Source: Candidatus Levyibacteriota bacterium (GTDB lineage Bacteria > Patescibacteriota > Microgenomatia > Levybacterales > GWA1-39-11). Taken from it: a stretch of DNA of 64,000 nucleotides. A program made the translations under genes and the position numbers. The notes under the pieces are model-generated. The model made no database searches. It saw nothing but the letters and a program-made list of their open reading frames with translations, and was not told the origin of the DNA. Below are positions 24,701-35,279 of the stretch, one piece after another; position 1 is the first letter of the stretch, and each line of letters begins with the position of its first letter. The stretch spans positions 26 through 64,025 of the forward strand of contig JBLMVJ010000019.1 in the NCBI GenBank assembly GCA_050255815.1, read 5' to 3'.

Positions 24701-25543
24701 CTAACTGGCAATTTCTGAAATAAACTGTCTTACTTTATCCCTATCCCTTTTTGGTATATTATCTATAACCCTTTCCAATCCAAATGTATCGACTGCGTTC
24801 CTGAGTAGTCTCCCATGGTCTTCCGGATCTAATACTACCGCCATAGTTTCCTGATTTTTTATTGCTGCATATAAGTCACCTTTATACGCCGTCAAACCTC
24901 TTCCCACAGTTAACCTGTGACCATCGGAAGATCCAACGGCTGCACCCAGTCTCCCCTTATGAGACCTTCTGTATTCTTGTGCAAAAGTATTTGAATCTCT
25001 GTATCCATCTCCACCCATGGAAGACGCATCTACTACTCCCATATTGTGTACCTCATATCCATCTATATATACATCTGGATCAGTACTTCTTTCTAAAGAG
25101 TTAAAAAGTTCCCTGTCAGCAGAATCAAGCCGCTTGTAAAAAGGATGGGGAACAATAGCAAGCCCCCCCTGCCCGTGTATTTTTTTAATAACATTTTTCA
25201 TGCTCCTTCTCACTACACCATGGTCTCCTCTTTCTACCACCGCAGAAATACCTTCTTTTAGGAAAACACCTATTAAGTGACCGTCTTTTGTCGTAATTTC
25301 CATACCCGTGACAACTTGAATATCTAACCCATTCGCAGCAGCATACTGTTGCCCTTCAAAAGAAGAGTCAATATTATCATGGTCTGTAATAGCTATTGCA
25401 CTGAGGCCCGATTTTCTTGCAAGAAACACAGCTTCACCTGGTGTCATTCCTCCTCTTCTTGCAACGTCTATGGATCCTTTTGTGTGCATATGCAAATCAG
25501 CAAGCTGGTATCCCTTTAATGACCTTCCATATAGTTCTCTCAT
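24701..25543 (-). CDS. PHP-domain phosphoesterase
   Basis: ADLHMHTKGS and AIAITDHD metal-binding motifs of the PHP family. Confidence 0.8.
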   Translation of the reverse strand: MRELYGRSLKGYQLADLHMHTKGSIDVARRGGMTPGEAVFLARKSGLSAIAITDHDNIDSSFEGQQYAAANGLDIQVVTGMEITTKDGHLIGVFLKEGISAVVERGDHGVVRRSMKNVIKKIHGQGGLAIVPHPFYKRLDSADRELFNSLERSTDPDVYIDGYEVHNMGVVDASSMGGDGYRDSNTFAQEYRRSHKGRLGAAVGSSDGHRLTVGRGLTAYKGDLYAAIKNQETMAVVLDPEDHGRLLRNAVDTFGLERVIDNIPKRDRDKVRQFISEIAS

Positions 25544-25549
25544 ATTATG

Positions 25550-26275
25550 CTATGCATGCCCTACAACTACCGCAATAGAAATCCTTCCCCGTCTTTCCAC
25601 TGCAATATGCCATTCATTAATTCCAAATTGTCTTCTTAATGCATCAGTCTCCCCATATGTTCTGACCTGCATTCTTCCATCCTGCATGTAGGTTTCAGCA
25701 GTTCTCCATTTTACTCCCAGTGGATTTCCATTTCCCACCAAAATCTTAGCTACTGCTTCTTTTACCGCCCACCTATTCTTCAGTAGGTCTGGATCCCCAT
25801 TGCATTCCTTGATCTCAGCTTCAGTAAAAGCTCTTTCTGGACGTGCAAAAAGCCGGCTTGACTGCCTATCCGCATTACAATCAACTCCAACCCTTAAATT
25901 ATTTACTGAACCCGTATCTCCTACAACAAACCCCACTGCAATTCCTTCATCATGGGAAATACTTACTGCAAAAGAGTTTATTCCTCTTCTAGTAGCCTCC
26001 CTAAATGCTTCTCCTTCTAGCTTCATAAAGGGATCTCCCTGTTTATGTTTCCCAATCTGAATATCAGACAGGGGAACAGGAACTCCTAATATTCTGGATA
26101 CCCCTAGCTTAACAGCCAATTTACCAGAAAGGCTTTCCTCTCTAATAACATCTTTTCTTTTACTCGACTCAATTTCTTCCTGGGTAAACCATCTTCTATC
26201 CATACCTTTTGCAACTTCAGAGGACAGCATTTCTAATCTTATGAATTGTGCCGGTATAGGAGTTTCTATTTTCAT
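25550..26275 (-). CDS. 4'-phosphopantetheinyl transferase (Sfp-type)
   Basis: SISHDEGIAVGFVV, VGVDCNADRQ (GxD-type) and WAVKEAVAKIL (W/KEA motif) characteristic of PPTases. 241 aa, two-half architecture. Confidence 0.7.
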   Translation of the reverse strand: MKIETPIPAQFIRLEMLSSEVAKGMDRRWFTQEEIESSKRKDVIREESLSGKLAVKLGVSRILGVPVPLSDIQIGKHKQGDPFMKLEGEAFREATRRGINSFAVSISHDEGIAVGFVVGDTGSVNNLRVGVDCNADRQSSRLFARPERAFTEAEIKECNGDPDLLKNRWAVKEAVAKILVGNGNPLGVKWRTAETYMQDGRMQVRTYGETDALRRQFGINEWHIAVERRGRISIAVVVGHA

Positions 26276-26328
26276 GCCAGTATTGTACCAGATGGAAGAA
26301 AAAAAGACTTGTTAGAATTTTTGAGGAA

Positions 26329-27090
26329 TTAGAATGATACGAAGTATTGGATCTTTGCTTTAGACTGGATATCAGCTAGCCATGTCTGGAATTTTCCGGA
26401 AAGTTTTTGCTGCTGCAACTGGGTCCTCACAGAATCTCTGAGAGTCTTAGGATCTTCTGTGGAAGGGAATGAATCTTTATTCTGTTCTATGTATGCATCT
26501 ACTTCTTTATCTGACACCGTTGCATCTTTTGCAAACAATTTCTCAATCATTTTCTGGATTTTCAGCTGGTCTATAAGATCCGCGCGGGTTAAACCCTGCT
26601 GGTCCAATGCATCCTGCAGAGTCCTTCCCTGCTTTTTCAGGGCGTCATCAATTTTCTTAACTTCTGCATTTACTTCTGCATCTGTCACAGTGATATGTTT
26701 TTTATCCATTTCCTGGAGAATTAAATCTTTGGTGATCAGGGACTCAAGCGTTTTTTTGCCGTATGTTTTTTCTAATTGCTGGTCAACGGAAAGGCGGGTA
26801 ATAAGGTGACCATTTACAGTTGCGGCAATAAAAAATCCCCTAAAGATATAAATTAATACTGCTAACACTACCACTCCTATGATAATGGCGGCCTTTTTTG
26901 TAGAAATTCTTTTTGATGTTAGTTTTGCAGAAGTATTTGCCGGAGCTACAGCTGCTTTTGCAGGAGCTGATTTTTTAACTGCTGTCTTAGGAGCTGTCTT
27001 TTTAGCAGTGGTTTTCGTTGTTTTTTTAACGGTCTTAGTTGCCATAAGTAATAAGTTCCTTGTTTTCCTCGCCTCGGAAAATAATTTCAA
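26329..27090 (-). CDS. SurA-N/PrsA-like chaperone-domain protein, membrane-anchored
   Basis: Lys/Ala-rich N-terminus, one TM, then a helical domain resembling the SurA N-terminal region; no PPIase domain. Start may be MATKTVKK at 27045. Confidence 0.5.
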   Translation of the reverse strand: MKLFSEARKTRNLLLMATKTVKKTTKTTAKKTAPKTAVKKSAPAKAAVAPANTSAKLTSKRISTKKAAIIIGVVVLAVLIYIFRGFFIAATVNGHLITRLSVDQQLEKTYGKKTLESLITKDLILQEMDKKHITVTDAEVNAEVKKIDDALKKQGRTLQDALDQQGLTRADLIDQLKIQKMIEKLFAKDATVSDKEVDAYIEQNKDSFPSTEDPKTLRDSVRTQLQQQKLSGKFQTWLADIQSKAKIQYFVSF

Positions 27091-27149
27091 AAACCATTAT
27101 AGCACATTATGTAAAGTCTTAATTGCAAGAGTTTTGAACTCGTAACCCA

Positions 27150-27482
27150 TTAACTTTTTAACCTTTTAACTTTTCTTATCTCCTGGGCAAATTCCTCAAG
27201 TAGTTCTTTTGTTTTCTTTTTTATTTTTTCTTCTATACCTACCGTATTTTGTAATACGTGTTCCCAGATTTCTTTATGGTCATTTTCCCTGGTATTATGT
27301 ACAAATACTTTTTTATGTTCTTCCGGTAGCTCAGTTAAAATTACATCAAGCACCGTATAGTGAACGCTTGAATTAACATGGTGCATTAAATCCTCTTTCT
27401 CCTTCTGAGAAAGCCCCAATGAATCCAATTCATTTTCAACAATATCCAACTCGATTAAGTGAGAATAAAAAGAAGTCTTCAT
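27150..27482 (-). CDS. Hypothetical acidic helical protein (110 aa)
   Basis: Track ORF. Contains an ELDSLG motif but context does not fit ACP (see rejected). Confidence 0.45.
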   Translation of the reverse strand: MKTSFYSHLIELDIVENELDSLGLSQKEKEDLMHHVNSSVHYTVLDVILTELPEEHKKVFVHNTRENDHKEIWEHVLQNTVGIEEKIKKKTKELLEEFAQEIRKVKRLKS

Positions 27483-27543
27483 ATATTTCTTTAGTCAAAA
27501 ATAAAACTTTTAAATTTTACGTTGTAATTTTGCATTTTGAATT

Positions 27544-28464
27544 TTAAATTTTAACTTGATTCTTTGGTTGTATTGGTCCTAATGGAATACTATCAGTTGG
27601 GTCATCTATAAAAAAGTAGAGCACCGGTCCGCGCTGTGCTCCGTCTACCCGCTCTAAGTATCTCATAACTTCCGGGGATCCGCCCAAATGCTTTCCCGTG
27701 GATTCCCCCGGTCCGGCGTCTGCAATATCCACTATCATAGATTTTCCATTCTCAGGATTTACTACCAGCATTTTCCGGTATTTAAAAAACTCTATATACC
27801 GCTTTACATCATCATGGAATCCAGGTGCTAAAAATGTCTGGACCGCAATATAATATTTCTCCCTGTCTTTATCTTTCTGAGTTAAGTCAAACTTTGATTT
27901 TGCAAAATATCCCCATGCCCCTAAACCCGGCGCCATACCTGAATCTGAAAAGGTATTAAATTCTTCATCAGTATTAAAATGGCCTCCTCCTACCGAATCT
28001 CCTGGATAGAGTGCAAGATGCTGCTCTGCGCCTATGAGCCCGTAAGACCTGTTTAGCCTGATTCCCTGCAGTTCTGCTGAAATCGGCATATTAAAATCGC
28101 GTGAAAGGATTCCGGAAATTTGCTTTTCTTCTTCCGGAGTTAATTCCCGCACATCAGACGGCAATGCGCTGTGCAGATCTGAAATTAAAAACTCCGAAGA
28201 GGAAGGGGCAAACGCATGTTGTTCAACTGCGGGCAGTATTTTTGGAGGCAAGGAAGGTAGTGAATTGGTAAGGAGGATCATAGCTCCTAAACTACCGGCA
28301 GCAAGATTAGCAGGATACGTGGTTAATGCAGAAAGTGCACTCTTGTGTGTTTCAACCAGTTTATTTTTAATGTCTGCATGTTTTTGACTAAATACCGATT
28401 TTAAGTCCTGAAAAACAGAATCTCCCACACTGATATTGTTTCTTAAATAGAGGAGCAATGTCAA
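27544..28464 (-). CDS. RlpA-like double-psi beta-barrel (DPBB) domain protein
   Basis: C-terminal KMLVVNPENGKSMIVDIADAGPGESTGKHLGGSPEVMRYL resembles the RlpA/expansin DPBB core (v.NleNGksvvvri.DrGP...iDLS..A). N-terminal hydrophobic segment. Confidence 0.5.
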   Translation of the reverse strand: MTLLLYLRNNISVGDSVFQDLKSVFSQKHADIKNKLVETHKSALSALTTYPANLAAGSLGAMILLTNSLPSLPPKILPAVEQHAFAPSSSEFLISDLHSALPSDVRELTPEEEKQISGILSRDFNMPISAELQGIRLNRSYGLIGAEQHLALYPGDSVGGGHFNTDEEFNTFSDSGMAPGLGAWGYFAKSKFDLTQKDKDREKYYIAVQTFLAPGFHDDVKRYIEFFKYRKMLVVNPENGKSMIVDIADAGPGESTGKHLGGSPEVMRYLERVDGAQRGPVLYFFIDDPTDSIPLGPIQPKNQVKI

Positions 28465-28485
28465 GAAAAATGAGAATAGAGGAGA

Positions 28486-29589
28486 TTACGAAGCCCTGCC
28501 AAATCTCACTACTGCGCCTGCCGCCATTAATCCCGCCCCAAAACCAACCATCACGCTGGTATTCCCCTGATGGAGACTTCCCTCCCTGACCAGACGATCC
28601 ATAAGCTTTGGAATGGAAGCAGAAGACATATTTCCATCTTCCTGGTCCCGCCCCACCAGGCCATATTCCCCTTTTAGTTTTTTAGCCTGCCATTCAGTAA
28701 TTTTTCTGCTTCCCTGATGAAACAAAACAGCAGCTATATCTGAAGGATTAAGGCCGGCATCATCCACTAAAGACCTGGTAAAATCCGGTATCACCCTGGC
28801 CATTTTTTCCAAAACATGATGGCCATCCATATGCACTATTCCATCAGGTGAAACAGGCGCTCTTTTTATAAGGACTTGTCCTTTCAAAAGGGTAAAGTCC
28901 ACAGGCATTTGAAGAAGTTCATCTTCTTCCCTGGTAAAAGCATCCGTGGATTTTGCAGTGAGAATGGAAAGATCTTCCCCCAACGTAAAGGAAACCGCAG
29001 CTGCACCATCTGAAAAAATAGTCTGTGCCATATGCGGATCTCTTTCTCTGGATTCAGGATCTTCTAAATTCGCTAAATAGGGATGGTATTTTTCAGTTGC
29101 AACAAATAATACCCTTGCTCCCTCCAGCTCCTTTCCCTGTCTATGCAGCCAATCCAAACCCGCAGCAAAGCCTGAGCAGGCCATATGTATGTTTAACCTG
29201 TTTGAAGGCAGGACTCCTAAACGGTATGCATCATTTATTCTAAACGCTAGATCTTGTCCGGTAGGAAAACTGGAAGAGACCAATAATACGTCAGCGCCGG
29301 ATGGATGAAGACCTTCCACTGCTTTCATGGCCATAAAGAGCGGCGTCTCTTCCGGACTTGCTATAAACCGCTGTTTTACCCCAATAAGATCTTCCATCCC
29401 TTCCGCGGTTAATGGTTTTCCCGTACCTGAAGTAAGGCCCCAGGATACCATTTCTTCATTCGTAAGCACTCTTTTTGGCTGATATAAACTTGTTTTAACG
29501 GTAGGAAGCTGAGGAAACTCCCTATGTTCTACAATGTGCCTGAACTCTTGCAATGGACCGCGGGAAGGTCTAGAATCTGGTGAATACAT
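28486..29589 (-). CDS. 3-oxoacyl-ACP synthase III-like (FabH/KAS III family) condensing enzyme A
   Basis: Catalytic triad context: Cys in NIHMACSGFAAGLD, His in LFHQGSRKI, Asn in GNMSSASIP. FabH-like N-terminus. Confidence 0.8.
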   Translation of the reverse strand: MYSPDSRPSRGPLQEFRHIVEHREFPQLPTVKTSLYQPKRVLTNEEMVSWGLTSGTGKPLTAEGMEDLIGVKQRFIASPEETPLFMAMKAVEGLHPSGADVLLVSSSFPTGQDLAFRINDAYRLGVLPSNRLNIHMACSGFAAGLDWLHRQGKELEGARVLFVATEKYHPYLANLEDPESRERDPHMAQTIFSDGAAAVSFTLGEDLSILTAKSTDAFTREEDELLQMPVDFTLLKGQVLIKRAPVSPDGIVHMDGHHVLEKMARVIPDFTRSLVDDAGLNPSDIAAVLFHQGSRKITEWQAKKLKGEYGLVGRDQEDGNMSSASIPKLMDRLVREGSLHQGNTSVMVGFGAGLMAAGAVVRFGRAS

Positions 29590-29693
29590 AATTCTTTAAT
29601 ACTGCAAATTATACAGGAAGAAGAACTAATGTCTATAAGAAGTTCAAATTTTTCTTACATTTTAAAAACCCGTTTTAAGTTAAAGTAAAAACC

Positions 29694-30848
29694 ATGAGTA
29701 AAATTGAGAGAGAGAGAATACCCGCAATCACCGGAGTAGGCGCTGCATTTGGAAAAAATGAAATATCAAATGAGAGAGTGTCACAACTTCTTGGTATACG
29801 TGAAAAAACGATAGGACGAATGATGAGTATGACCGGAGCTGGAATCGAGCATAGAAGATGGGTTGACTCTTCACAGTTAGGGGTAACACAAACTCTAACA
29901 AACCCTAACGATCCAAAAGATCCTAATTACTGGAAAGAGCATGGACTAGAAGTTGCCGCATCTGATTTAGCCTCAGAAGCACTTCTCAGAGCATCGGAAA
30001 TGGCAGGAATTGATGTAAAAAATATTAAAGCTATTGTTGGCGCTTCAGGTTCACAAGATTTGAGAGGAGTCCCAATTGCAGCCATGATTCAGGATAAACT
30101 TGGACTCCCCAGAAGCACAAGAGCACATGATGTCTATTCCGCATGTCCTGGATGGCTTCAGGCGCTCAGAAACACGTACGACAGTTTACTTAGTCCTCTA
30201 ACTGAAGGAGGACCACAAGCTGCGATTGGATCTGAGGTGCTAAGCCCAATCCTAAGCAAAGAAAGGTCTTCACTTTTTGTACTATTTGGTGATGCAGCAG
30301 GAGCAACTGTTGTAGATAATGTAATACCTGATGAAGGAGCTCCAAAAGTTATGGCATTTGAATTTGGTTCAGATGGTTCTCTTGCGCAAGAATTGTGCAT
30401 GCCAGGAGGGGGGAGTAAATATCCAAGCAGCCAAGAAACTCTTGATGCAGATCTACACACTCTTTTAATGAATGGTCCTGTTGTAGCTGAGCACGCTGTT
30501 AACTACATGGCAGAAGCAACACAAGCAGCATTAAAAAAAGCGGGAATCTCAAGAGAAGATGTAGATTGGATTATCCCACACCAGGCAAATAGAGGAATTA
30601 TGGATGATACATACAAGAGAATTATGGGAGACACAGCAGATGCAGCGGGAATTCCCTATGGAAATATGATTGCAACGGTACATAAATACGGAAATACATC
30701 TGCCTCAACCATTCCTATAGCTATGGCAGAAGCAATCCAAGAGGGAAAACTGAAGAGGAATCAATTGGTCGTGGTTACTTCATTTGGAGCAGGATTTGTT
30801 TATGGAGCCGCCGTCCTCTCTATGGTCGGCCTCCCAAAGAAAGCTTAA
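29694..30848 (+). CDS. 3-oxoacyl-ACP synthase III-like (FabH/KAS III family) condensing enzyme B
   Basis: Cys in VYSACPGWLQAL, His in IIPHQANRGI, Asn in YGNTSASTIPIA. Divergently transcribed from enzyme A. Confidence 0.8.
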   Translation: MSKIERERIPAITGVGAAFGKNEISNERVSQLLGIREKTIGRMMSMTGAGIEHRRWVDSSQLGVTQTLTNPNDPKDPNYWKEHGLEVAASDLASEALLRASEMAGIDVKNIKAIVGASGSQDLRGVPIAAMIQDKLGLPRSTRAHDVYSACPGWLQALRNTYDSLLSPLTEGGPQAAIGSEVLSPILSKERSSLFVLFGDAAGATVVDNVIPDEGAPKVMAFEFGSDGSLAQELCMPGGGSKYPSSQETLDADLHTLLMNGPVVAEHAVNYMAEATQAALKKAGISREDVDWIIPHQANRGIMDDTYKRIMGDTADAAGIPYGNMIATVHKYGNTSASTIPIAMAEAIQEGKLKRNQLVVVTSFGAGFVYGAAVLSMVGLPKKA

Positions 30849-30854
30849 AGCTTT

Positions 30855-31772
30855 TTACTTTATCCCTAACATTCTGTTAATTAATTTTTTTGACCCTACT
30901 ACTGCTTTTATCCCCTCTATCCTTGCCACATCCTCATTATTTGAAATCACTCTGACCAGTTTTCCATCAATTCCTCTTTTTGACCCTTCGCCTGCTGCAT
31001 AATATGCAACACCATCTCCCTGCTTTAGCCTAACTCCGCCAAATTCAACCGGACCTACCTGCCCAAACAACGGCACAATTTCTCCATCAAAGCTCTCAGG
31101 AGAAAGCAAAGCAATACCTGCTGTTTGTGCTGCTGCCTCTATGATAAAATCTTCCGGCAAAACTTCAGGACTGTGGTCGTGCGAATATGCTACCGTAAGG
31201 CTTGAAATATTTGTTGTTTCATCCCCATTTTCATTTGTAATTTTGACATTATATGTCGCACTCTCTCTTGTTCTTTTCAATAATTCGGGGATAACGGTCA
31301 GCGAGTGTGTTCCATCAGCTAGAACAGGCCTATTAAACTGGGCAAGATCAAAACGTGCAAGTCTTGAAAAATGGCTATTTCCTGCATCCAGCTCTATTTC
31401 CTGTATAGCTTCAACTGCCGCTCTAATTTGTTTATGCCCGGGGAAAATAAGGGGAAAACCGTTTTTTATATTGAGATGACCACGGGCTTTTTCCGGAATT
31501 ACGGGAACTATTGCAGCAACTACTTTCCCTCCTTCAAAAATAAGTCCATCAGGATCTATCATAGGAAGTGCTCTGGGAAGTGTTACCTGATCTCCGGAAA
31601 CAATTCCTCTTCCTACCCCTACCGGCATACCTAAGATTTCAGCTCTTTGTAATGACTGTATTCCTATGGCATCCGGTGTTCCATACCACGTTCCCAGTGC
31701 TTTTTGTGCATCAATTAAACCGGTAAGGGCTCTTTCTGCAGATGTTTTTCCGGTTTCTGCTGGTTGTGTCAT
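30855..31772 (-). CDS. Tandem double-hotdog FabZ-like dehydratase-type protein
   Basis: C-terminal half aligns with FabZ (HDHSP..FIIEAAAQTAGI..YYAAGEGSKRG..GKLVRV). N-terminal half carries a second degenerate hotdog (FPLIFPGH..AAVEAIQ). Start set at MTQPAETGK (31772); the track start 31847 would overlap the FabG-like gene by 58 nt. Confidence 0.6.
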   Translation of the reverse strand: MTQPAETGKTSAERALTGLIDAQKALGTWYGTPDAIGIQSLQRAEILGMPVGVGRGIVSGDQVTLPRALPMIDPDGLIFEGGKVVAAIVPVIPEKARGHLNIKNGFPLIFPGHKQIRAAVEAIQEIELDAGNSHFSRLARFDLAQFNRPVLADGTHSLTVIPELLKRTRESATYNVKITNENGDETTNISSLTVAYSHDHSPEVLPEDFIIEAAAQTAGIALLSPESFDGEIVPLFGQVGPVEFGGVRLKQGDGVAYYAAGEGSKRGIDGKLVRVISNNEDVARIEGIKAVVGSKKLINRMLGIK

Positions 31773-31789
31773 ATGAAGTTGAAGTATAC

Positions 31790-32659
31790 CTATGCGAGAG
31801 TGAGAATGTGTCCGCTTTCCGGAAGTGTTGCAAGAAATGGCATGCACCTGGCAATTTCTTCAGGTTTAAATTCTTTTCCGGCAGGAAGTACATCCACAAG
31901 GCTCTGTTTATTGTCTGCTGACATAGTAGATGTTAAATCCGTATCAGTTAACCCTATTCTAAAGATAGCTGTTTTAATGCCTCTGGGTCCATACATAGGG
32001 TCTTGGGCAGCGACTTCAGCAACTGCCTCCATAGCGCGTTTTGATGCGGCATAATTTATCTGTCCGGGGAATCCTTCCTGCCCAACACTGGAATTAAATA
32101 TAATCATCCCTCCCTGAGGATCTTTATTTTTCATCATAACCCTGGCTGCTGCCTGGGTGACAAAAAATGCACTATCAGCATTTGTCCTCATAACGTCATA
32201 CCATTCTTCCGGCTTCATTCTCATGGTAATATTGTCCCGGATAGTTCCGGCATTATTTATAACCACATCTATCCGCCCTAAGCCTTCCACTGCCCCATCT
32301 ATTAACTGTTTTGCTCCTTCCGGAGTAGAGACATCTGCCTGGATAAAAATAGCCTCTCCGCCCTTTTCTTTTATGTTCTCAACCAAACGGCTTCCTCTTT
32401 CTTCATCTCTTCCGTTAATAACAACTTTCATGCCGTATTCTGTTGCAAGATGAATTGCGGTTGCTGCCCCAATTCCTCTGGTTGAACCTGTTATAACAGC
32501 AATCTTTCCTTCTAATTCACTTTTTTCAATTCTGGGAAGTTGGTCAGGAGAAGAAATAAAAACACCTAATCTTTTTGCAACGTTTTCCGGAGTAAAAGAA
32601 AAATCTTTTTTAAGGGTAATGCCCTGAGGAACACCGGGACGTACGTCTGGTTGAGTCAT
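31790..32659 (-). CDS. SDR-family 3-oxoacyl-ACP reductase-like (FabG-like)
   Basis: GKIAVITGSTRGIG cofactor motif, NNAG, and catalytic S...YAASK. ~45-aa N-terminal extension. Confidence 0.85.
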   Translation of the reverse strand: MTQPDVRPGVPQGITLKKDFSFTPENVAKRLGVFISSPDQLPRIEKSELEGKIAVITGSTRGIGAATAIHLATEYGMKVVINGRDEERGSRLVENIKEKGGEAIFIQADVSTPEGAKQLIDGAVEGLGRIDVVINNAGTIRDNITMRMKPEEWYDVMRTNADSAFFVTQAAARVMMKNKDPQGGMIIFNSSVGQEGFPGQINYAASKRAMEAVAEVAAQDPMYGPRGIKTAIFRIGLTDTDLTSTMSADNKQSLVDVLPAGKEFKPEEIARCMPFLATLPESGHILTLA

Positions 32660-32810: not shown

Positions 32811-35279
32811 TTATCTCCCAATTGAGTCTTCTACTTCTTTAATCCGCACCGCGGTCTTGAGGACGGTGTCCGGATTGAGGGATATGGAGTCTATTCCCTC
32901 TTTTACTAAGAACTCTGCCAGCTCAGGGAAGTCTGATGGACCCTGTCCGCAAATTCCCACCTGCAGACCTTTCTCATGGGCTTTTTTAATGAGGGTGGAG
33001 ATTAACGTATGGACGGATTTATTCATTTCATTGCCAATATGCGCCACTAATTTAGAGTCACGGTCCAATCCTAATGTAAGCTGCGTCAAATCATTAGACC
33101 CTATGGAAAAACCGTCAAAAATATCCGCATATTCTTCTACCTGCAAAATGTTTGATGGGATTTCTGCCATCACCCACACATGGAGTCCCTCATCTAACTC
33201 TTCTTTGTGTTCTTTGTTGCGCTCATGATCATGGCTGAGTCCATGTTTTGCCATTTCTTCAATAACCTTTTTCCCTTCCTCCGGCGTCCTGCAGAATGGG
33301 ATCATAACCTGCAAGTTATGAAGTCCCATATCATTTCTTACTTTCATTACTGCCTTACATTCTAAAGCGAATGCGTCAGAAAACTGCGGATCAGTGTAGC
33401 GGCTTGCCCCGCGCCATCCTATCATAGGGTTTTCTTCATGCGGCTCAAATAGTTTCCCCCCAATAAGCCCGGCATATTCATTTGATTTAAAATCACTAAA
33501 TCTCAAGAGTACTTCGTGAGGATAAAATGCAGCGGCCATAATAGCAATACCATATGCTAACTTATCAATATAATAATCTACCCGGTTGTGGTACCCTGCG
33601 GTTAACTGGTCTATCTGCTTCTTAACTTCCTGGTCTTCTAAAGAGTCGTATTTTAATAGAGCATTCGGATGGATTTTAATAAAGTTAGAAATAATAAACT
33701 CTTCGCGGGCAAGACCAACTCCCATATTAGGTATAAAGGAATAGTTAAAAGCAAGCTCAGGGTCTGCCGCAATCATTTTTATTTTAGTCTTTGGCAGCTG
33801 GAACCCTGAAAGGTCTGTTTTATCTATCCTGAATGGTAAAATTCCTTCATAGACCACCCCGCGTTCACCCTCCGCGCAGGAAACTGTAATTTCCTGTCCG
33901 TTTGGTACTACCTTTGTTGCTTCACCGCAACCTACTATTGCAGGTATACCTAACTCCCGGGAGACAATAGCCGCATGGGAGGTACGTCCGCCTGAGTTGG
34001 TAACAATGGCTGAAGCTATCTTCATGATAGGCTCCCAGTCAGGGTCAGTAATTTCAGCAATCAATACTTCCCCTTTTTGGAATTCACTCAACTGGCTGGG
34101 GTCTTTAATAAACCGCGCTTTTCCCTGTCCAATTTTTCTTCCCACTGCCGCTCCGGTGATTAACTCTTTCCCTTTTTCCAAAAGCACACACTCTTCAAGG
34201 GACGTCCCGTCTTTTCTTGCCTGTACTGTTTCCGGCCTGGCCTGCACTATATACAACTCTTTTGTTTCTCCATCAAATGCCCATTCCATGTCCATAGGTT
34301 TCTGGTAGTGCTCTTCTATCATGAGACCCCAGCGGGAAAGCTGCAGGATATATTCATCTGAAAGAACAAAAGCCTGGCGGTCATTTGGGGGAACCGGAAC
34401 GTCTTTTGTAGGAGAGGTGCCCTCATTAGAATAAATAAGTTTCTTTTCTTTACTCCCTAATTTTTTACTGATAATAGCGTTGAAACCTTTTTTCAGGGTT
34501 GGCTTAAAAACCATAAACTCATCCGGGGTTACAATCCCTTTCACCACATATTCCCCTAATCCCCATGAACCATTTATCAGAACCACATCCCTGAATCCGC
34601 TTTCTGTATCCAGGGAAAACATCACCCCGGATGCGCCCCTATCAGAACGTGCCATTTTCTGGACTGCCACAGAAAGCGCTATCTTAAAGTGGTCAAATTT
34701 CTGGTCAACACGGTAGGAGATAGCGCGGTTAGTAAATAGGGAAGCAAACGCTTTTTTAATTGCATCCATCAGGGAGCGTTCTCCTTTAATATTTAAATAT
34801 GATTCCTGTTGGCCGGCAAAGGAAGCATCCGGCAAGTCTTCTGCGGTAGCAGAAGACCTCACCGCAACATCTAGGTCTTCTTTATTTATATTAAGCTTTT
34901 CTGCCATCTTTGCGTAAGCCTCTCCAACCGCTGCATTCATTTCATCCGGGAATATGGCAGACATGATCATTTCCCTGATCTTTTCGCCGGCTTGTTCTAA
35001 TTGTTTAATATCCTGGGTATTCAGACCATCTAGTACTTCTGAAATTTTCTTATCAAGCTGGTTCTTCTCAATAAAATATTTGTAAGAGTAAGAGGTTACC
35101 GCAAAACCGTAGGGTACTTTTATGCTTTCGTTTGGAAAAAGTTGGGATGATGCGTGGGTGAGGTTCTGGAACATTTCCCCCAGGTTTGCATTCTTTCCTC
35201 CTACCAGAGGTATATCATTCTTATTAATCTCATCAAACCATAATACAAATTGCTCTTCACGGGCAGCCATAATATCCAT
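32811..35279 (-). CDS. ppsA: Phosphoenolpyruvate synthase (PEP-utilising enzyme)
   Basis: N-terminal ATP-grasp start (FVLWFDEI..PLVGGKNANLGEM), phospho-His domain GGRTSHAAIVSRELGIPAIVG, C-terminal PEP-utilisers TIM barrel. 822 aa. Confidence 0.9.
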   Translation of the reverse strand: MDIMAAREEQFVLWFDEINKNDIPLVGGKNANLGEMFQNLTHASSQLFPNESIKVPYGFAVTSYSYKYFIEKNQLDKKISEVLDGLNTQDIKQLEQAGEKIREMIMSAIFPDEMNAAVGEAYAKMAEKLNINKEDLDVAVRSSATAEDLPDASFAGQQESYLNIKGERSLMDAIKKAFASLFTNRAISYRVDQKFDHFKIALSVAVQKMARSDRGASGVMFSLDTESGFRDVVLINGSWGLGEYVVKGIVTPDEFMVFKPTLKKGFNAIISKKLGSKEKKLIYSNEGTSPTKDVPVPPNDRQAFVLSDEYILQLSRWGLMIEEHYQKPMDMEWAFDGETKELYIVQARPETVQARKDGTSLEECVLLEKGKELITGAAVGRKIGQGKARFIKDPSQLSEFQKGEVLIAEITDPDWEPIMKIASAIVTNSGGRTSHAAIVSRELGIPAIVGCGEATKVVPNGQEITVSCAEGERGVVYEGILPFRIDKTDLSGFQLPKTKIKMIAADPELAFNYSFIPNMGVGLAREEFIISNFIKIHPNALLKYDSLEDQEVKKQIDQLTAGYHNRVDYYIDKLAYGIAIMAAAFYPHEVLLRFSDFKSNEYAGLIGGKLFEPHEENPMIGWRGASRYTDPQFSDAFALECKAVMKVRNDMGLHNLQVMIPFCRTPEEGKKVIEEMAKHGLSHDHERNKEHKEELDEGLHVWVMAEIPSNILQVEEYADIFDGFSIGSNDLTQLTLGLDRDSKLVAHIGNEMNKSVHTLISTLIKKAHEKGLQVGICGQGPSDFPELAEFLVKEGIDSISLNPDTVLKTAVRIKEVEDSIGR

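What the first reader, a model, noticed from the sequence alone, without database searches (positions are those of the whole stretch)
25550..32659. Minimal fatty-acid/polyketide-like gene set (PPTase, 2x KAS III, double-hotdog DH, KR) without ACP, AT or ER
Within 7 kb there is a Sfp-type PPTase, two divergently arranged FabH-like condensing enzymes (each with intact Cys/His/Asn triad context), a tandem double-hotdog FabZ-like dehydratase and a FabG-like SDR reductase. The latter two are tightly linked on the minus strand, and ppsA follows immediately. No acyl carrier protein, malonyl-CoA:ACP transacylase, enoyl reductase or KAS I/II is visible. Reduced-genome (CPR-like) bacteria are generally thought to lack FAS-II. 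A KS-KS-KR-DH set plus a PPTase therefore suggests an unusual, possibly CoA-dependent or carrier-sharing pathway making a 3-hydroxy or enoyl lipid, an alkyl-pyrone/resorcinol-type product, or a head-to-head (OleA-like) condensation product. Paired FabH-likes could form a heterodimer.
Basis: partly seen in the sequence, partly recalled or inferred. Interest (0 to 1): 0.75.

Follow-up and report, generated by a model that had tools for sequence, protein, structure and literature searches.

The report
Trimmed fatty-acid-synthase-like cluster in Levybacteria
A tiny-genome (CPR, Levybacteria) bacterium carries four intact but very divergent fatty-acid-synthase-type genes plus a carrier-activating enzyme. 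They are a cut-down copy of a fuller cluster found in all its close relatives, so this bears on whether such bacteria can build or extend fatty acids, but no new chemistry is shown.

Summary
The window is a contig of a Candidatus Levyibacteriota MAG. It encodes two KAS III condensing enzymes with intact Cys-His-Asn triads (KAS-A 28486-29589 minus strand, KAS-B 29694-30848 plus strand). It also encodes a single-chain double-hotdog FabZ-like dehydratase (30855-31772), a FabG-like ketoreductase (31790-32659) and a tandem AcpS-like PPTase (25550-26275). No ACP, FabD, enoyl reductase or KAS I/II is found in the 64 kb.

The "minimal set" is a secondary reduction. Every close relative with enough flanking sequence has the same syntenic locus with three additions. 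The dehydratase is fused to an N-terminal Y-x6-K (FabI/FabL-type) reductase domain. A FabD-like malonyl transferase and a Crp regulator lie between the dehydratase and KAS-B. A methyltransferase or third KAS III follows KAS-A. In some relatives a FabF-like KS replaces KAS-B.

So this is a divergent, Levybacteria-specific type II FAS-like cluster that has lost ER, AT, Crp and MT here. No ACP lies near it in 568 kb of related loci. The carrier is therefore unresolved, and whether the trimmed pathway still works is also unresolved. OleA-, DarB- and type III PKS-like readings and an obligate KAS heterodimer are not supported. Partial FAS-II sets without ACP are already reported in other CPR. Interest is moderate.

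The parts
28486..29589 (-). KAS-A: a divergent KAS III-type condensing enzyme (367 aa). It belongs to a small family known only from metagenome and MAG contigs and carries an HQGS motif where FabH has HQAN.
   Evidence: PF08541 at 1.4e-18; FabH subfamily model 103 bits against a cutoff of 249. Best PDB matches are ZhuH/FabH. About 17 family clusters at 34-54% identity. C138/H291/N320 are invariant.
29590..29693 (.). Divergent intergenic region (104 bp) between KAS-A and KAS-B. It holds the best sigma-70-like match of the region, on the minus strand at 29635-29608 (TAGACA-16-TATAAT), upstream of KAS-A.
   Evidence: The total number of promoter-like sites in the region is not above chance, so this is only a candidate.
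29694..30848 (+). KAS-B: a FabH-like KAS III (384 aa) with a roughly 30-aa N-terminal insertion. It occupies the position held by a FabF-like KS in some relatives.
   Evidence: FabH subfamily model 205 bits against a cutoff of 249; PF08541 and PF08545. Best PDB match is 4dfe FabH, with Cys/His/Asn aligned. It is 63-74% identical to orthologues in L004, L010, L023 and L025.
30855..31772 (-). Single-chain double-hotdog FabZ-like dehydratase (305 aa). It has one composite active site: His99 from hotdog 1 and Glu212/Gln216 from hotdog 2. It corresponds to the C-terminal half of the ER-DH fusion proteins of relatives.
31790..32659 (-). FabG-like SDR ketoreductase (289 aa) with classical TGxxxGIG, NNAG and S...YAASK motifs and a roughly 45-aa N-terminal extension.
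   Evidence: PF00106 at 2.8e-44; FabG equivalog models 178-179 bits, below cutoffs of 298-332. It is 58-69% identical to syntenic orthologues.
25550..26275 (-). Two-domain (tandem AcpS-like) 4'-phosphopantetheinyl transferase (241 aa). The catalytic motifs are kept in the C-terminal half. It is only loosely linked to the cluster.
   Evidence: PF01648 at 36 bits (cutoff 25); two AcpS-like stretches. PDB matches: S. coelicolor AcpS and the yeast FAS PPT domain. The orthologue in L001 is 35% identical. It is absent from the equivalent position in L004, L023 and L025.
24701..25543 (-). PHP-family phosphoesterase, 6 nt downstream of the PPTase. The pairing is conserved in L001. It may act with the PPTase, but it is not part of the FAS-like set proper.
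   Evidence: PF02811. Only weak hits to pAp phosphatase and RNase models. Generic PHP matches in the PDB. Pairing in L001.

Best explanation
This is an intact but secondarily trimmed copy of a Levybacteria-specific, highly divergent type II fatty-acid-synthase-like gene cluster.

Proposed ancestral form, still present in close relatives:
- KAS-A primes the chain.
- A second condensing enzyme elongates it. This is either the KAS III KAS-B or, interchangeably, a FabF-like KS.
- The FabG-like SDR reduces the 3-keto group.
- A bifunctional protein dehydrates through its C-terminal tandem-FabZ double hotdog, with one composite His/Glu site.
- The same protein reduces the enoyl product through its N-terminal Y-x6-K SDR domain, the FabI/FabL type.
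- A membrane-anchored FabD-like transferase loads malonyl units.
- A Crp-family regulator and a SAM methyltransferase accompany these genes.

In the window lineage three clean deletions removed the ER domain, the AT-Crp pair and the MT. This left KAS-A, KAS-B, KR and DH.

I infer that the intermediates ride on a phosphopantetheinylated carrier encoded elsewhere and activated by the two-domain PPTase. In this genome the pathway then has two possible states. It may borrow AT and ER functions in trans. Or it may stop at 3-hydroxy- or 2-enoyl-acyl products after extending a scavenged acyl primer.

Shown: gene identities, folds, catalytic residues, synteny and the reductions. Inferred: the order of reactions, the carrier and the product.
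For: Organism: Candidatus Levyibacteriota.

Catalytic residues intact: C-H-N in both KAS; His99 and Glu212/Gln216 in the DH, conserved across the family; S-Y-K and NNAG in the SDR (sequence).

Syntenic relatives L001, L004, L010, L013 and L025 carry PpsA-side and SurA-side flanks around: SDR, a 540-634-aa SDR-like+DH fusion, AT (PF00698 in L004 and L025; a FabD-like protein without a recorded Pfam hit in L001, L010 and L013), Crp, KAS-B or KS, KAS-A, and MT or a third KAS III. L023 covers only the Crp-to-SurA part of the locus and shows Crp, KAS-B, KAS-A and MT.

ER assignment: the fusion's N-terminal domain has Y-x6-K in 18 of 18 fused members. The classical Tyr at K-4 is absent.

Loss rather than gain: the window DH nests among fused proteins in an NJ tree. 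The closest relative, L023/L024 (u306 80%, SurA 83%, KAS-B 74%), still has Crp and MT.

Relatives look functional: the AT keeps the FabD Ser92/Arg117/His201 equivalents, and the KS keeps Cys-His-His.

KS and KAS-B occupy the same slot in the close pair L001 and L025 (KAS-A 84% identical).

A PPTase with intact motifs implies that a carrier protein exists.

The position equivalent to EcFabH Arg249, which my own knowledge links to ACP docking, is basic in 14 of 17 KAS-A.
Against: - No ACP gene was found in the window or in 568 kb of related CPR-type loci. The same HMM detected ACP domains in unrelated loci, which served as a positive control.
- The rest of this genome could not be inspected, so 'carrier, AT or ER in trans' is an assumption.
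- All proteins score below NCBIfam equivalog cutoffs. Their activities are therefore not assured.
- Three deletions in one lineage could equally mean the pathway is being abandoned.
- L019 has KR, ER-DH, KS, MT and a KAS III but no AT within 10 kb. The AT is therefore not universal.
- The ER assignment rests on a motif and on context only.
Confidence: 0.55

Rival explanations
1. Decaying remnant. The Levybacteria FAS-like pathway is being lost in this lineage. The four remaining genes are intact only because the deletions are recent, and they no longer make a useful product.
For: Three independent losses (ER domain, AT plus Crp, MT) relative to all close relatives, including the nearest one, L023. 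Other Levybacteria keep only the ER-DH gene with no condensing enzyme within 10 kb (L014-L018, L020). This shows the cluster erodes readily. Gene loss is typical of CPR.
Against: All four ORFs are full length with every catalytic residue kept. The deletions are in-frame and clean, and the DH has acquired its own start codon 18 nt after the SDR stop. The window's divergence from L023 for KAS-B (74%) and KAS-A (53%) is in line with what other intact pairs show: for L004 and L010, KAS-B is 82% and KAS-A 44% at similar flank identity.
Confidence: 0.2
2. ACP-independent route. The enzymes act on CoA thioesters or on a non-canonical carrier. This would give a CoA-based elongation or modification cycle comparable to what has been proposed for archaea and for Nealsonbacteria.
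For: No ACP in the window or beside the cluster in any relative (568 kb scanned; Pfam-annotated neighbours). Published CPR surveys report partial FAS-II sets without ACP machinery and raise an ACP-independent pathway (PMC7242380; Minisyncoccus, PMC12281837).
Against: An intact PPTase is present, and it is conserved with its PHP neighbour in L001. Relatives carry a FabD-like transferase with the malonyl-binding Arg and the catalytic Ser and His. Its known role is loading a phosphopantetheine thiol. The EcFabH CoA-contact residues W32/R36/R151 are not conserved in KAS-A or KAS-B (alignment is uncertain in the N-terminal part). acpP genes do occur in some Patescibacteria (PMC12455944).
Confidence: 0.15
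3. Specialised-metabolite pathway. KS-KS-KR-DH without ER would make a polyene, alkylpyrone, resorcinol or head-to-head olefin-type product rather than a fatty acid.
For: There is no ER in the window. Relatives carry a methyltransferase. The DH resembles ApeI:P and PKS DH domains at the fold level. KAS III-like enzymes do such chemistry elsewhere.
Against: The best profile matches are FabH, FabG and FabZ. DarB/StlD score 33-39 bits against cutoffs of 450-550, DpgA 21-25 bits, and OleA structures 25 bits. No OleB, OleC or OleD, no DarA, no aromatase or cyclase, no ligase. The ancestral cluster has an ER fused to the DH, which points to saturated chains. CPR genomes are not known for secondary metabolism (own knowledge).
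Confidence: 0.1

Closest known systems
Bacterial type II fatty acid synthase (FabH, FabF, FabD, FabG, FabZ, FabI/FabL, AcpP, AcpS)
   Same: Discrete enzymes of the same superfamilies with the same catalytic residues. Taken together with its relatives, the cluster covers condensation, keto-reduction, dehydration, enoyl reduction, malonyl transfer and carrier activation.
   Different: Every protein scores below the equivalog cutoffs. There is no ACP in or near the cluster. The DH is a single-chain tandem FabZ rather than a homo-oligomer of single hotdogs. The ER is fused to the DH. There are two or three KAS III, and a KAS III sits where FabF is expected. In this window AT, ER and KAS I/II are missing altogether.
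Double-hotdog dehydratases of PKS / type I FAS, and the ApeI:P heterocomplex
   Different: It is a stand-alone protein or an ER-DH didomain, not part of a megasynthase. Its sequence signal points to FabZ only. The acidic residue is Glu in an IEAAAQ context as in FabZ, not the PKS DxxxQ/H. The HxxxGxxxxP spacing is not kept.
Partial FAS-II gene sets reported in other CPR (Nealsonbacteria; Minisyncoccus archaeiphilus FabG, FabA-like, FabK, AccC)
   Same: Reduced-genome Patescibacteria carrying some FAS-II homologues without a recognisable ACP. Their function is explicitly unresolved in the literature (PMC7242380, PMC12281837).
   Different: A different phylum and different components. Here there are KAS III pairs, a tandem-FabZ DH, an SDR-type ER fused in relatives, and a PPTase. 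Nealsonbacteria were reported to lack ACP synthase and FabD, whereas these Levybacteria relatives have both types.
PqsB/PqsC and KS/CLF-type condensing-enzyme heterodimers
   Same: Two adjacent thiolase-fold condensing-enzyme genes. KAS-A weakly matches PqsC (28 bits).
   Different: Both KAS here keep the full Cys-His-Asn triad. The partner of KAS-A is interchangeable with a FabF-like KS. KAS-A also occurs alone in other genomes.

Membership tests
FabH (KAS III, NCBIfam NF006829 / TIGR00747) | Whole-protein score at or above the curated cutoff (249 / 292 bits) | tested here: not met
   KAS-B scores 205 / 188 bits and KAS-A 103 / 92 bits.
FabH (KAS III) | Cys-His-Asn catalytic triad (EcFabH C112/H244/N274) | tested here: met
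   Invariant in KAS-A, KAS-B, their families and EcFabH in alignment A5. Also visible in the PDB alignments.
FabH (KAS III) | Acyl-CoA primer contacts (EcFabH W32, R36, R151; role from own knowledge) | tested here: not met
   KAS-A has G/L/D and KAS-B has M/G/S at these columns. The canonical-looking KAS III of L019 keeps W32 and R151. Alignment of the N-terminal region is uncertain.
FabZ (NCBIfam NF000582; Pfam FabA PF07977) | Single hotdog subunit scoring above the family threshold | tested here: not met
   16.8 bits against a cutoff of 113, and no Pfam hit for the window protein. It is a tandem of two hotdogs. Among relatives, 12 of 40 hit PF07977.
FabZ | His and Glu catalytic pair contributed by two hotdog units, in the HF...PG and EAxAQ contexts | tested here: met
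   H99 in 'GHLNIKNGFPLIFPGH' of hotdog 1 and E212/Q216 in 'IEAAAQ' of hotdog 2 are invariant or nearly so. The profile aligns to FabZ over both halves. The side-chain geometry in the model could not be inspected.
PKS-type DH (Pfam PS-DH PF14765) | HxxxGxxxxP and DxxxQ/H motifs within a double hotdog | tested here: inconclusive
   The double-hotdog fold is confirmed. Only 4 of 40 relatives hit PF14765. The motif spacing differs, and Glu replaces Asp.
FabG (NCBIfam TIGR01830 / NF004197) | Score above cutoff; TGxxxGxG, NNAG and the Ser-Tyr-Lys motifs | tested here: inconclusive
   All motifs are present in the sequence. The score is 178-179 bits, below cutoffs of 298-332.
Sfp-type (group II) PPTase | A protein of about 230 aa with two PPTase domains, Mg-binding GxD and the W/F-x-x-KE-x-x-x-K motif | tested here: met
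   241 aa with two AcpS-like stretches, 22-119 and 148-238. The C-terminal half has RVGVD and WAVKEAVAK. In sequence each half is closer to AcpS than to Sfp.
Complete FAS-II system | ACP (PF00550) encoded with or near the fab genes | tested here: not met
   No hit in the window or in the related loci. Presence elsewhere in the genome is not testable with these tools.
Complete FAS-II system | FabD, an enoyl reductase and a KAS I/II | tested here: not met
   Absent from the 64-kb window by tblastn. Present in relatives.
OleABCD olefin pathway | OleA-type thiolase together with OleB, OleC and OleD | tested here: not met
   OleA structures match KAS-B at only about 25 bits and do not match KAS-A at E<=0.001. 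No alpha/beta-hydrolase or AMP-ligase genes lie nearby.
Dialkylresorcinol DarABC / StlD | DarB/StlD-type ketosynthase above cutoff, with DarA and DarC | tested here: not met
   KAS-B scores 33-39 bits against cutoffs of 450-550. No DarA- or DarC-like genes.
FabI/FabL-type ('divergent SDR') enoyl reductase: the N-terminal domain of relatives' fusion proteins | Tyr-x6-Lys active-site spacing instead of Tyr-x3-Lys (family definition from own knowledge) | tested here: met
   18 of 18 fused members have Y-x6-K at residues 156-208 (288 in one member). The Lys aligns with the SDR catalytic Lys, and the K-4 position is not Tyr. This domain is absent from the window protein.

The most novel reading that the evidence does not exclude
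A clade of Levybacteria (CPR) runs its own fatty-acyl elongation system, built from very divergent type II FAS parts. These parts include a tandem-FabZ DH fused to an SDR-type ER and KAS III enzymes that serve as both starter and elongator. The system would work without a conventional ACP, on CoA or on an unrecognised carrier. The window's ER-less, AT-less version would be a functional variant that yields 3-hydroxy or enoyl lipids. That would overturn the view that CPR bacteria cannot make or extend fatty acids.
Probability: 0.15. Interest if true: 0.8.

Novelty: new variant of a known kind. Interest (0 to 1): 0.5.

Why it matters
CPR/Patescibacteria are widely described as unable to synthesise membrane lipids. 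The role of the scattered FAS-II homologues in their genomes is an acknowledged open question (PMC7242380, PMC12281837).

This locus, read together with its relatives, defines a compact Levybacteria-specific FAS-like cluster. It is nearly complete in relatives except for a recognisable ACP. It also supplies natural 'deletion variants', of which the window is the most reduced.

That gives a concrete gene set to express and assay: KAS-A, KAS-B or KS, KR, ER-DH, AT and PPTase. Such an assay could decide whether any CPR lineage elongates acyl chains and on what carrier.

The locus also adds an uncharacterised dehydratase architecture. It is a single-chain tandem FabZ, usually fused to a Y-x6-K reductase, with only 47 representatives among 1.84 billion protein clusters.

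Tried and rejected
- Single-sequence AF2 of the DH was useless (pLDDT 32). It worked only with the family alignment.
- K-mer-indexed homologue searches of the DH and of the PPTase returned only the query itself. The PPTase search therefore gave no route to a carrier protein.
- Exact-sequence look-ups of window proteins found no record.
- The afdb50 fold library was unavailable.
- The profile of full-length fusion proteins against the PDB was swamped by SDR hits. It had to be redone with the DH part only.
- I tested whether the conserved 110-aa protein downstream of KAS-A (27150-27482), which carries an 'LDSLGLS' motif, is a cryptic ACP. I rejected this: there is no invariant Ser in the family, and hhalign probability against ACPs is 0.1%.
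- The 306-aa neighbour has no Pfam or PDB match. It persists without KAS genes in L014, so I do not count it as part of the set.
- The 75-aa ORF after KAS-A in L008 is a small membrane protein, not an ACP.
- Three weak ACP-HMM hits in CPR loci are not ACPs. Two are ribosomal protein L7/L12 by Pfam annotation, and the third (L041) sits where that gene is expected.
- The metagenome scan with the KAS-A profile mostly returned an unrelated KAS III family next to ACP-domain proteins.
- I checked the release-factor gene for a programmed frameshift site and found none.

Full report
**What is in the window.** The window is essentially the whole 64.5-kb contig of a MAG named Candidatus Levyibacteriota, which belongs to the CPR/Microgenomates. 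GC content is about 40% throughout, with no compositional break at the locus.

The region contains these genes:
- PHP-family phosphoesterase, 24701-25543 (-)
- PPTase, 25550-26275 (-)
- membrane-anchored SurA_N-like protein, 26329-27090 (-)
- two conserved unknowns: u110, 27150-27482 (-), and u306, 27544-28464 (-)
- KAS-A, 28486-29589 (-)
- KAS-B, 29694-30848 (+)
- dehydratase (DH), 30855-31772 (-)
- SDR, 31790-32659 (-)
- PpsA, 32811-35279 (-)

**Checking the five genes.** Pfam and NCBIfam confirm the families, but every protein falls below the curated equivalog cutoffs:
- KAS-B: 205 bits to the FabH subfamily model (cutoff 249)
- KAS-A: 103 bits to the same model
- SDR: 179 bits to FabG models (cutoffs 298-332)
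- DH: only 16.8 bits to FabZ and no Pfam hit

The PPTase passes PF01648. It is a tandem of two AcpS-like halves. The C-terminal half keeps GVD and WAVKEAVAK and best matches S. coelicolor AcpS. The N-terminal half matches the yeast FAS PPT domain.

The Cys-His-Asn triad of both KAS enzymes aligns with solved FabH/ZhuH structures. It is invariant across 17 KAS-A relatives, five KAS-B-type proteins and E. coli FabH.

**The dehydratase.**
- It is an orphan for word-based search. An exhaustive HMMER scan found only 47 relatives among 1.84 billion representatives.
- With their alignment, AlphaFold gives a confident model (pLDDT 93.9, pTM 0.91) of two consecutive hotdog folds.
- Fold alone does not separate dehydratase from thioesterase, but sequence does. 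A profile of the DH part hits only FabZ entries in the whole PDB, once with each half. Twelve of 40 relatives hit Pfam FabA.
- The conserved residues are the FabZ pair split over the two halves. His99 lies in 'GHLNIKNGFPLIFPGH' just before the central helix of hotdog 1. Glu212/Gln216 lie in 'IEAAAQ' in the central helix of hotdog 2.
- The reciprocal positions are degenerate: Arg117 sits where the Glu would be, and there is no conserved His in hotdog 2.
I could not inspect side-chain geometry in the model.

**What the relatives show.** KAS-A belongs to a small family known only from metagenome and MAG contigs. I fetched the contigs that encode its members.

L001 (a 588-kb contig), L004, L010, L013 and L025 are syntenic with the window on both sides, with the polysaccharide deacetylase/PpsA flank on one side and the u306-u110-SurA flank on the other. 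L023/L024 cover only the part from Crp to the SurA flank. Where the sequence reaches, the locus is larger. Its order is:
- SDR
- a 540-634-aa protein
- an AT-like protein, on the opposite strand
- a Crp-family regulator
- KAS-B or a FabF-like KS, on the opposite strand
- KAS-A
- a UbiE-type methyltransferase, or a third KAS III in L004
- u306, u110

BLAST shows that the window DH aligns to residues 281-569 of the long protein. The N-terminal half of that protein is an SDR-like domain.
- In 18 of 18 fused members this domain has Tyr-x6-Lys at a fixed position.
- The Lys aligns with the SDR catalytic Lys, and the classical Tyr four residues before it is missing.
- From my own knowledge, this spacing defines the 'divergent' SDR class of FabI/FabL/InhA enoyl reductases.
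- I therefore read the fusion as ER-DH.

The AT-like proteins keep the FabD Ser92, Arg117 and His201 equivalents. They also have a C-terminal hydrophobic helix with a basic tail. The FabF-like KS keeps Cys-His-His.

All of these score as divergent FabD (82-86 bits against a cutoff of 261) and FabF (237 against 494). With its relatives, the locus is thus a divergent but component-complete type II FAS-like cluster, apart from a carrier protein.

**The window's version is derived.**
- None of AT, ER domain, Crp, KS or MT is detectable anywhere in the 64 kb by tblastn.
- The junctions are clean. The DH and KAS-B stop codons are 6 bp apart, where relatives have AT plus Crp.
- The DH start lies 18 nt after the SDR stop, where relatives have about 840 bp of ER domain.
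- KAS-A is followed directly by u306, where most relatives have the MT.
- In an NJ tree of the DH domain, the window protein sits next to the 634-aa fused protein, inside a clade of fused proteins (no support values were computed).
- The closest relative available, L023/L024 (u306 80%, SurA 83%, KAS-B 74%), still has Crp abutting KAS-B and an MT after KAS-A.
- Three lineage-specific deletions are the parsimonious reading.
- The retained genes do not look abandoned. They are full length and keep all catalytic residues. Their divergence from L023 is comparable to that of intact pairs: KAS-A evolves fast everywhere, for example 44% identity between L004 and L010 at 81% u306 identity.

**The cluster is plastic.**
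- L001 and L025 are close (KAS-A 84%, PpsA 89%). Yet they carry a FabF-like KS and the KAS III KAS-B at the same position. This suggests that KAS-B does the job of the elongating synthase.
- L019 has KR, ER-DH, KS, MT and a canonical-looking KAS III, but no AT and no KAS-A.
- Several Levybacteria and Roizmanbacteria loci keep only the ER-DH gene or a stand-alone DH.
- More distant KAS-A relatives sit alone between rplL and rpmB, or in unrelated contexts.
- This argues against an obligate KAS-A/KAS-B heterodimer.

**The carrier problem.**
- A home-made ACP HMM run with all filters off found no ACP in six-frame translations of the window or of any CPR-type locus. That is 568 kb in total. The only weak hits are not ACPs: two are ribosomal L7/L12 by Pfam annotation and the third sits where that gene is expected.
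- The same HMM picked up ACP domains in unrelated sediment loci, which serves as a positive control.
- Pfam on the window's 23 small ORFs shows no PF00550. None of the Pfam-annotated neighbours in the fetched contigs has it.
- The conserved 110-aa protein with an 'LDSLGLS' motif is not a carrier. It has no invariant Ser, and hhalign probability against ACPs is 0.1%.
- Against a carrier-free pathway stand the intact PPTase and the FabD-like transferases of relatives.
- The E. coli FabH CoA-contact residues W32/R36/R151 are not conserved in either KAS. The Arg249 position, implicated in ACP docking from my own knowledge, is basic in 14 of 17 KAS-A. This is weak evidence because the N-terminal alignment is uncertain.
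- The PPTase itself is only loosely tied to the cluster. Three unrelated genes separate it from KAS-A, and it is missing from the equivalent place in L004, L023 and L025.
- Whether an ACP, an AT or an ER is encoded elsewhere in this genome cannot be decided with the tools available.

**Comparison with what is known.**
- Similarity to OleA, DarB/StlD, PqsC/D, CorB, DpgA and HMG-CoA synthase is far weaker than to FabH. The partner genes of those systems are absent.
- Published work already notes partial FAS-II sets without ACP machinery in other CPR, and leaves their function open.
- Nealsonbacteria are described with near-complete FAS-II homologues but no ACP synthase or FabD, and an ACP-independent route is suggested (PMC7242380).
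- Minisyncoccus archaeiphilus has FabG, a FabA-like protein, FabK and AccC (PMC12281837).
- acpP genes have been reported in some Patescibacteria (PMC12455944).
- I found no paper describing this Levybacteria cluster. The library searched is limited.

**Verdict.**
The locus is real, and it is unusual for a CPR genome.
- Its 'minimality' is a secondary trimming of a lineage-specific, divergent FAS-II-like cluster. It is not evidence for a self-sufficient new pathway.
- The most likely mechanism is carrier-dependent condensation, keto-reduction and dehydration of acyl chains, possibly starting from scavenged primers. In this genome, ER and AT are either supplied in trans or lost.
- Decay, CoA-dependence and specialised-metabolite readings remain possible, at lower probability.
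- It is a new variant of a known kind. Interest is moderate, mainly because the family of loci makes the question 'can any CPR elongate fatty acids, and on what carrier?' directly testable.

Noticed in passing
window 24701-26275 (-); L001 14918-16506: The PPTase and a PHP-family phosphoesterase form a conserved, tightly coupled gene pair: a 6-nt gap here and a 4-nt overlap in L001. PPTases release 3',5'-ADP, and the PHP protein weakly matches a 3',5'-nucleoside bisphosphate phosphatase model (38 bits). A by-product-clearing partner is therefore conceivable, but unproven.
   Followed up: partly
window 27150-28464 (-): u306 (membrane-anchored, 306 aa) and u110 (helical, 110 aa) form a very conserved pair directly downstream of KAS-A in all relatives. 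Mean column identity of u306 is 69%. There is no Pfam or PDB match. The pair persists in L014 without KAS genes nearby, so it is probably independent of the FAS-like set. Its function is unknown.
   Followed up: partly
L001 6311-7516, L004 5205-6347, L025 6687-7775, L010 3993-5156, L013 10852-11874: The FabD-like acyltransferases of relatives carry a C-terminal hydrophobic helix followed by a basic tail. This suggests a membrane-anchored malonyl transferase, which is unusual for FabD.
   Followed up: partly
L001 8397-9872 vs L025 8661-9872: Two closely related genomes (KAS-A 84% identical) carry a FabF-like KS (Cys-His-His intact) and a KAS III (KAS-B type) in the same slot, divergent from KAS-A. 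This is an apparent non-orthologous displacement of the second condensing enzyme.
   Followed up: partly
L007 1339-2382; L107 968-2053; L108 4970-6055: More distant KAS-A family members sit alone between ribosomal protein genes (L10/L12 upstream, L28 downstream in L107-L109), with no other FAS-like gene within reach. A solitary KAS III-like enzyme in CPR genomes has no obvious role.
   Followed up: no
L051-L106 (sediment and marine metagenome contigs): An unrelated, abundant family: a 322-aa KAS III immediately preceded by a protein of about 645 aa that contains an ACP-like domain. It was picked up by the shared GFGAGL / ACSG motifs.
   Followed up: no
window 29590-29693: The 104-bp divergent region between KAS-A and KAS-B holds a near-consensus sigma-70-like promoter for KAS-A (TAGACA-16-TATAAT, 11 of 12). 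The Crp regulator that accompanies the cluster in relatives is missing here.
   Followed up: no
L011-L014, L017, L018, L020, L021 (genome contigs records): Several contigs titled 'uncultured Gammaproteobacteria' carry the ER-DH gene. L013 and L014 also carry the u306/u110 pair typical of the Levybacteria loci. Those record titles therefore look like mislabels or placeholders.
   Followed up: no
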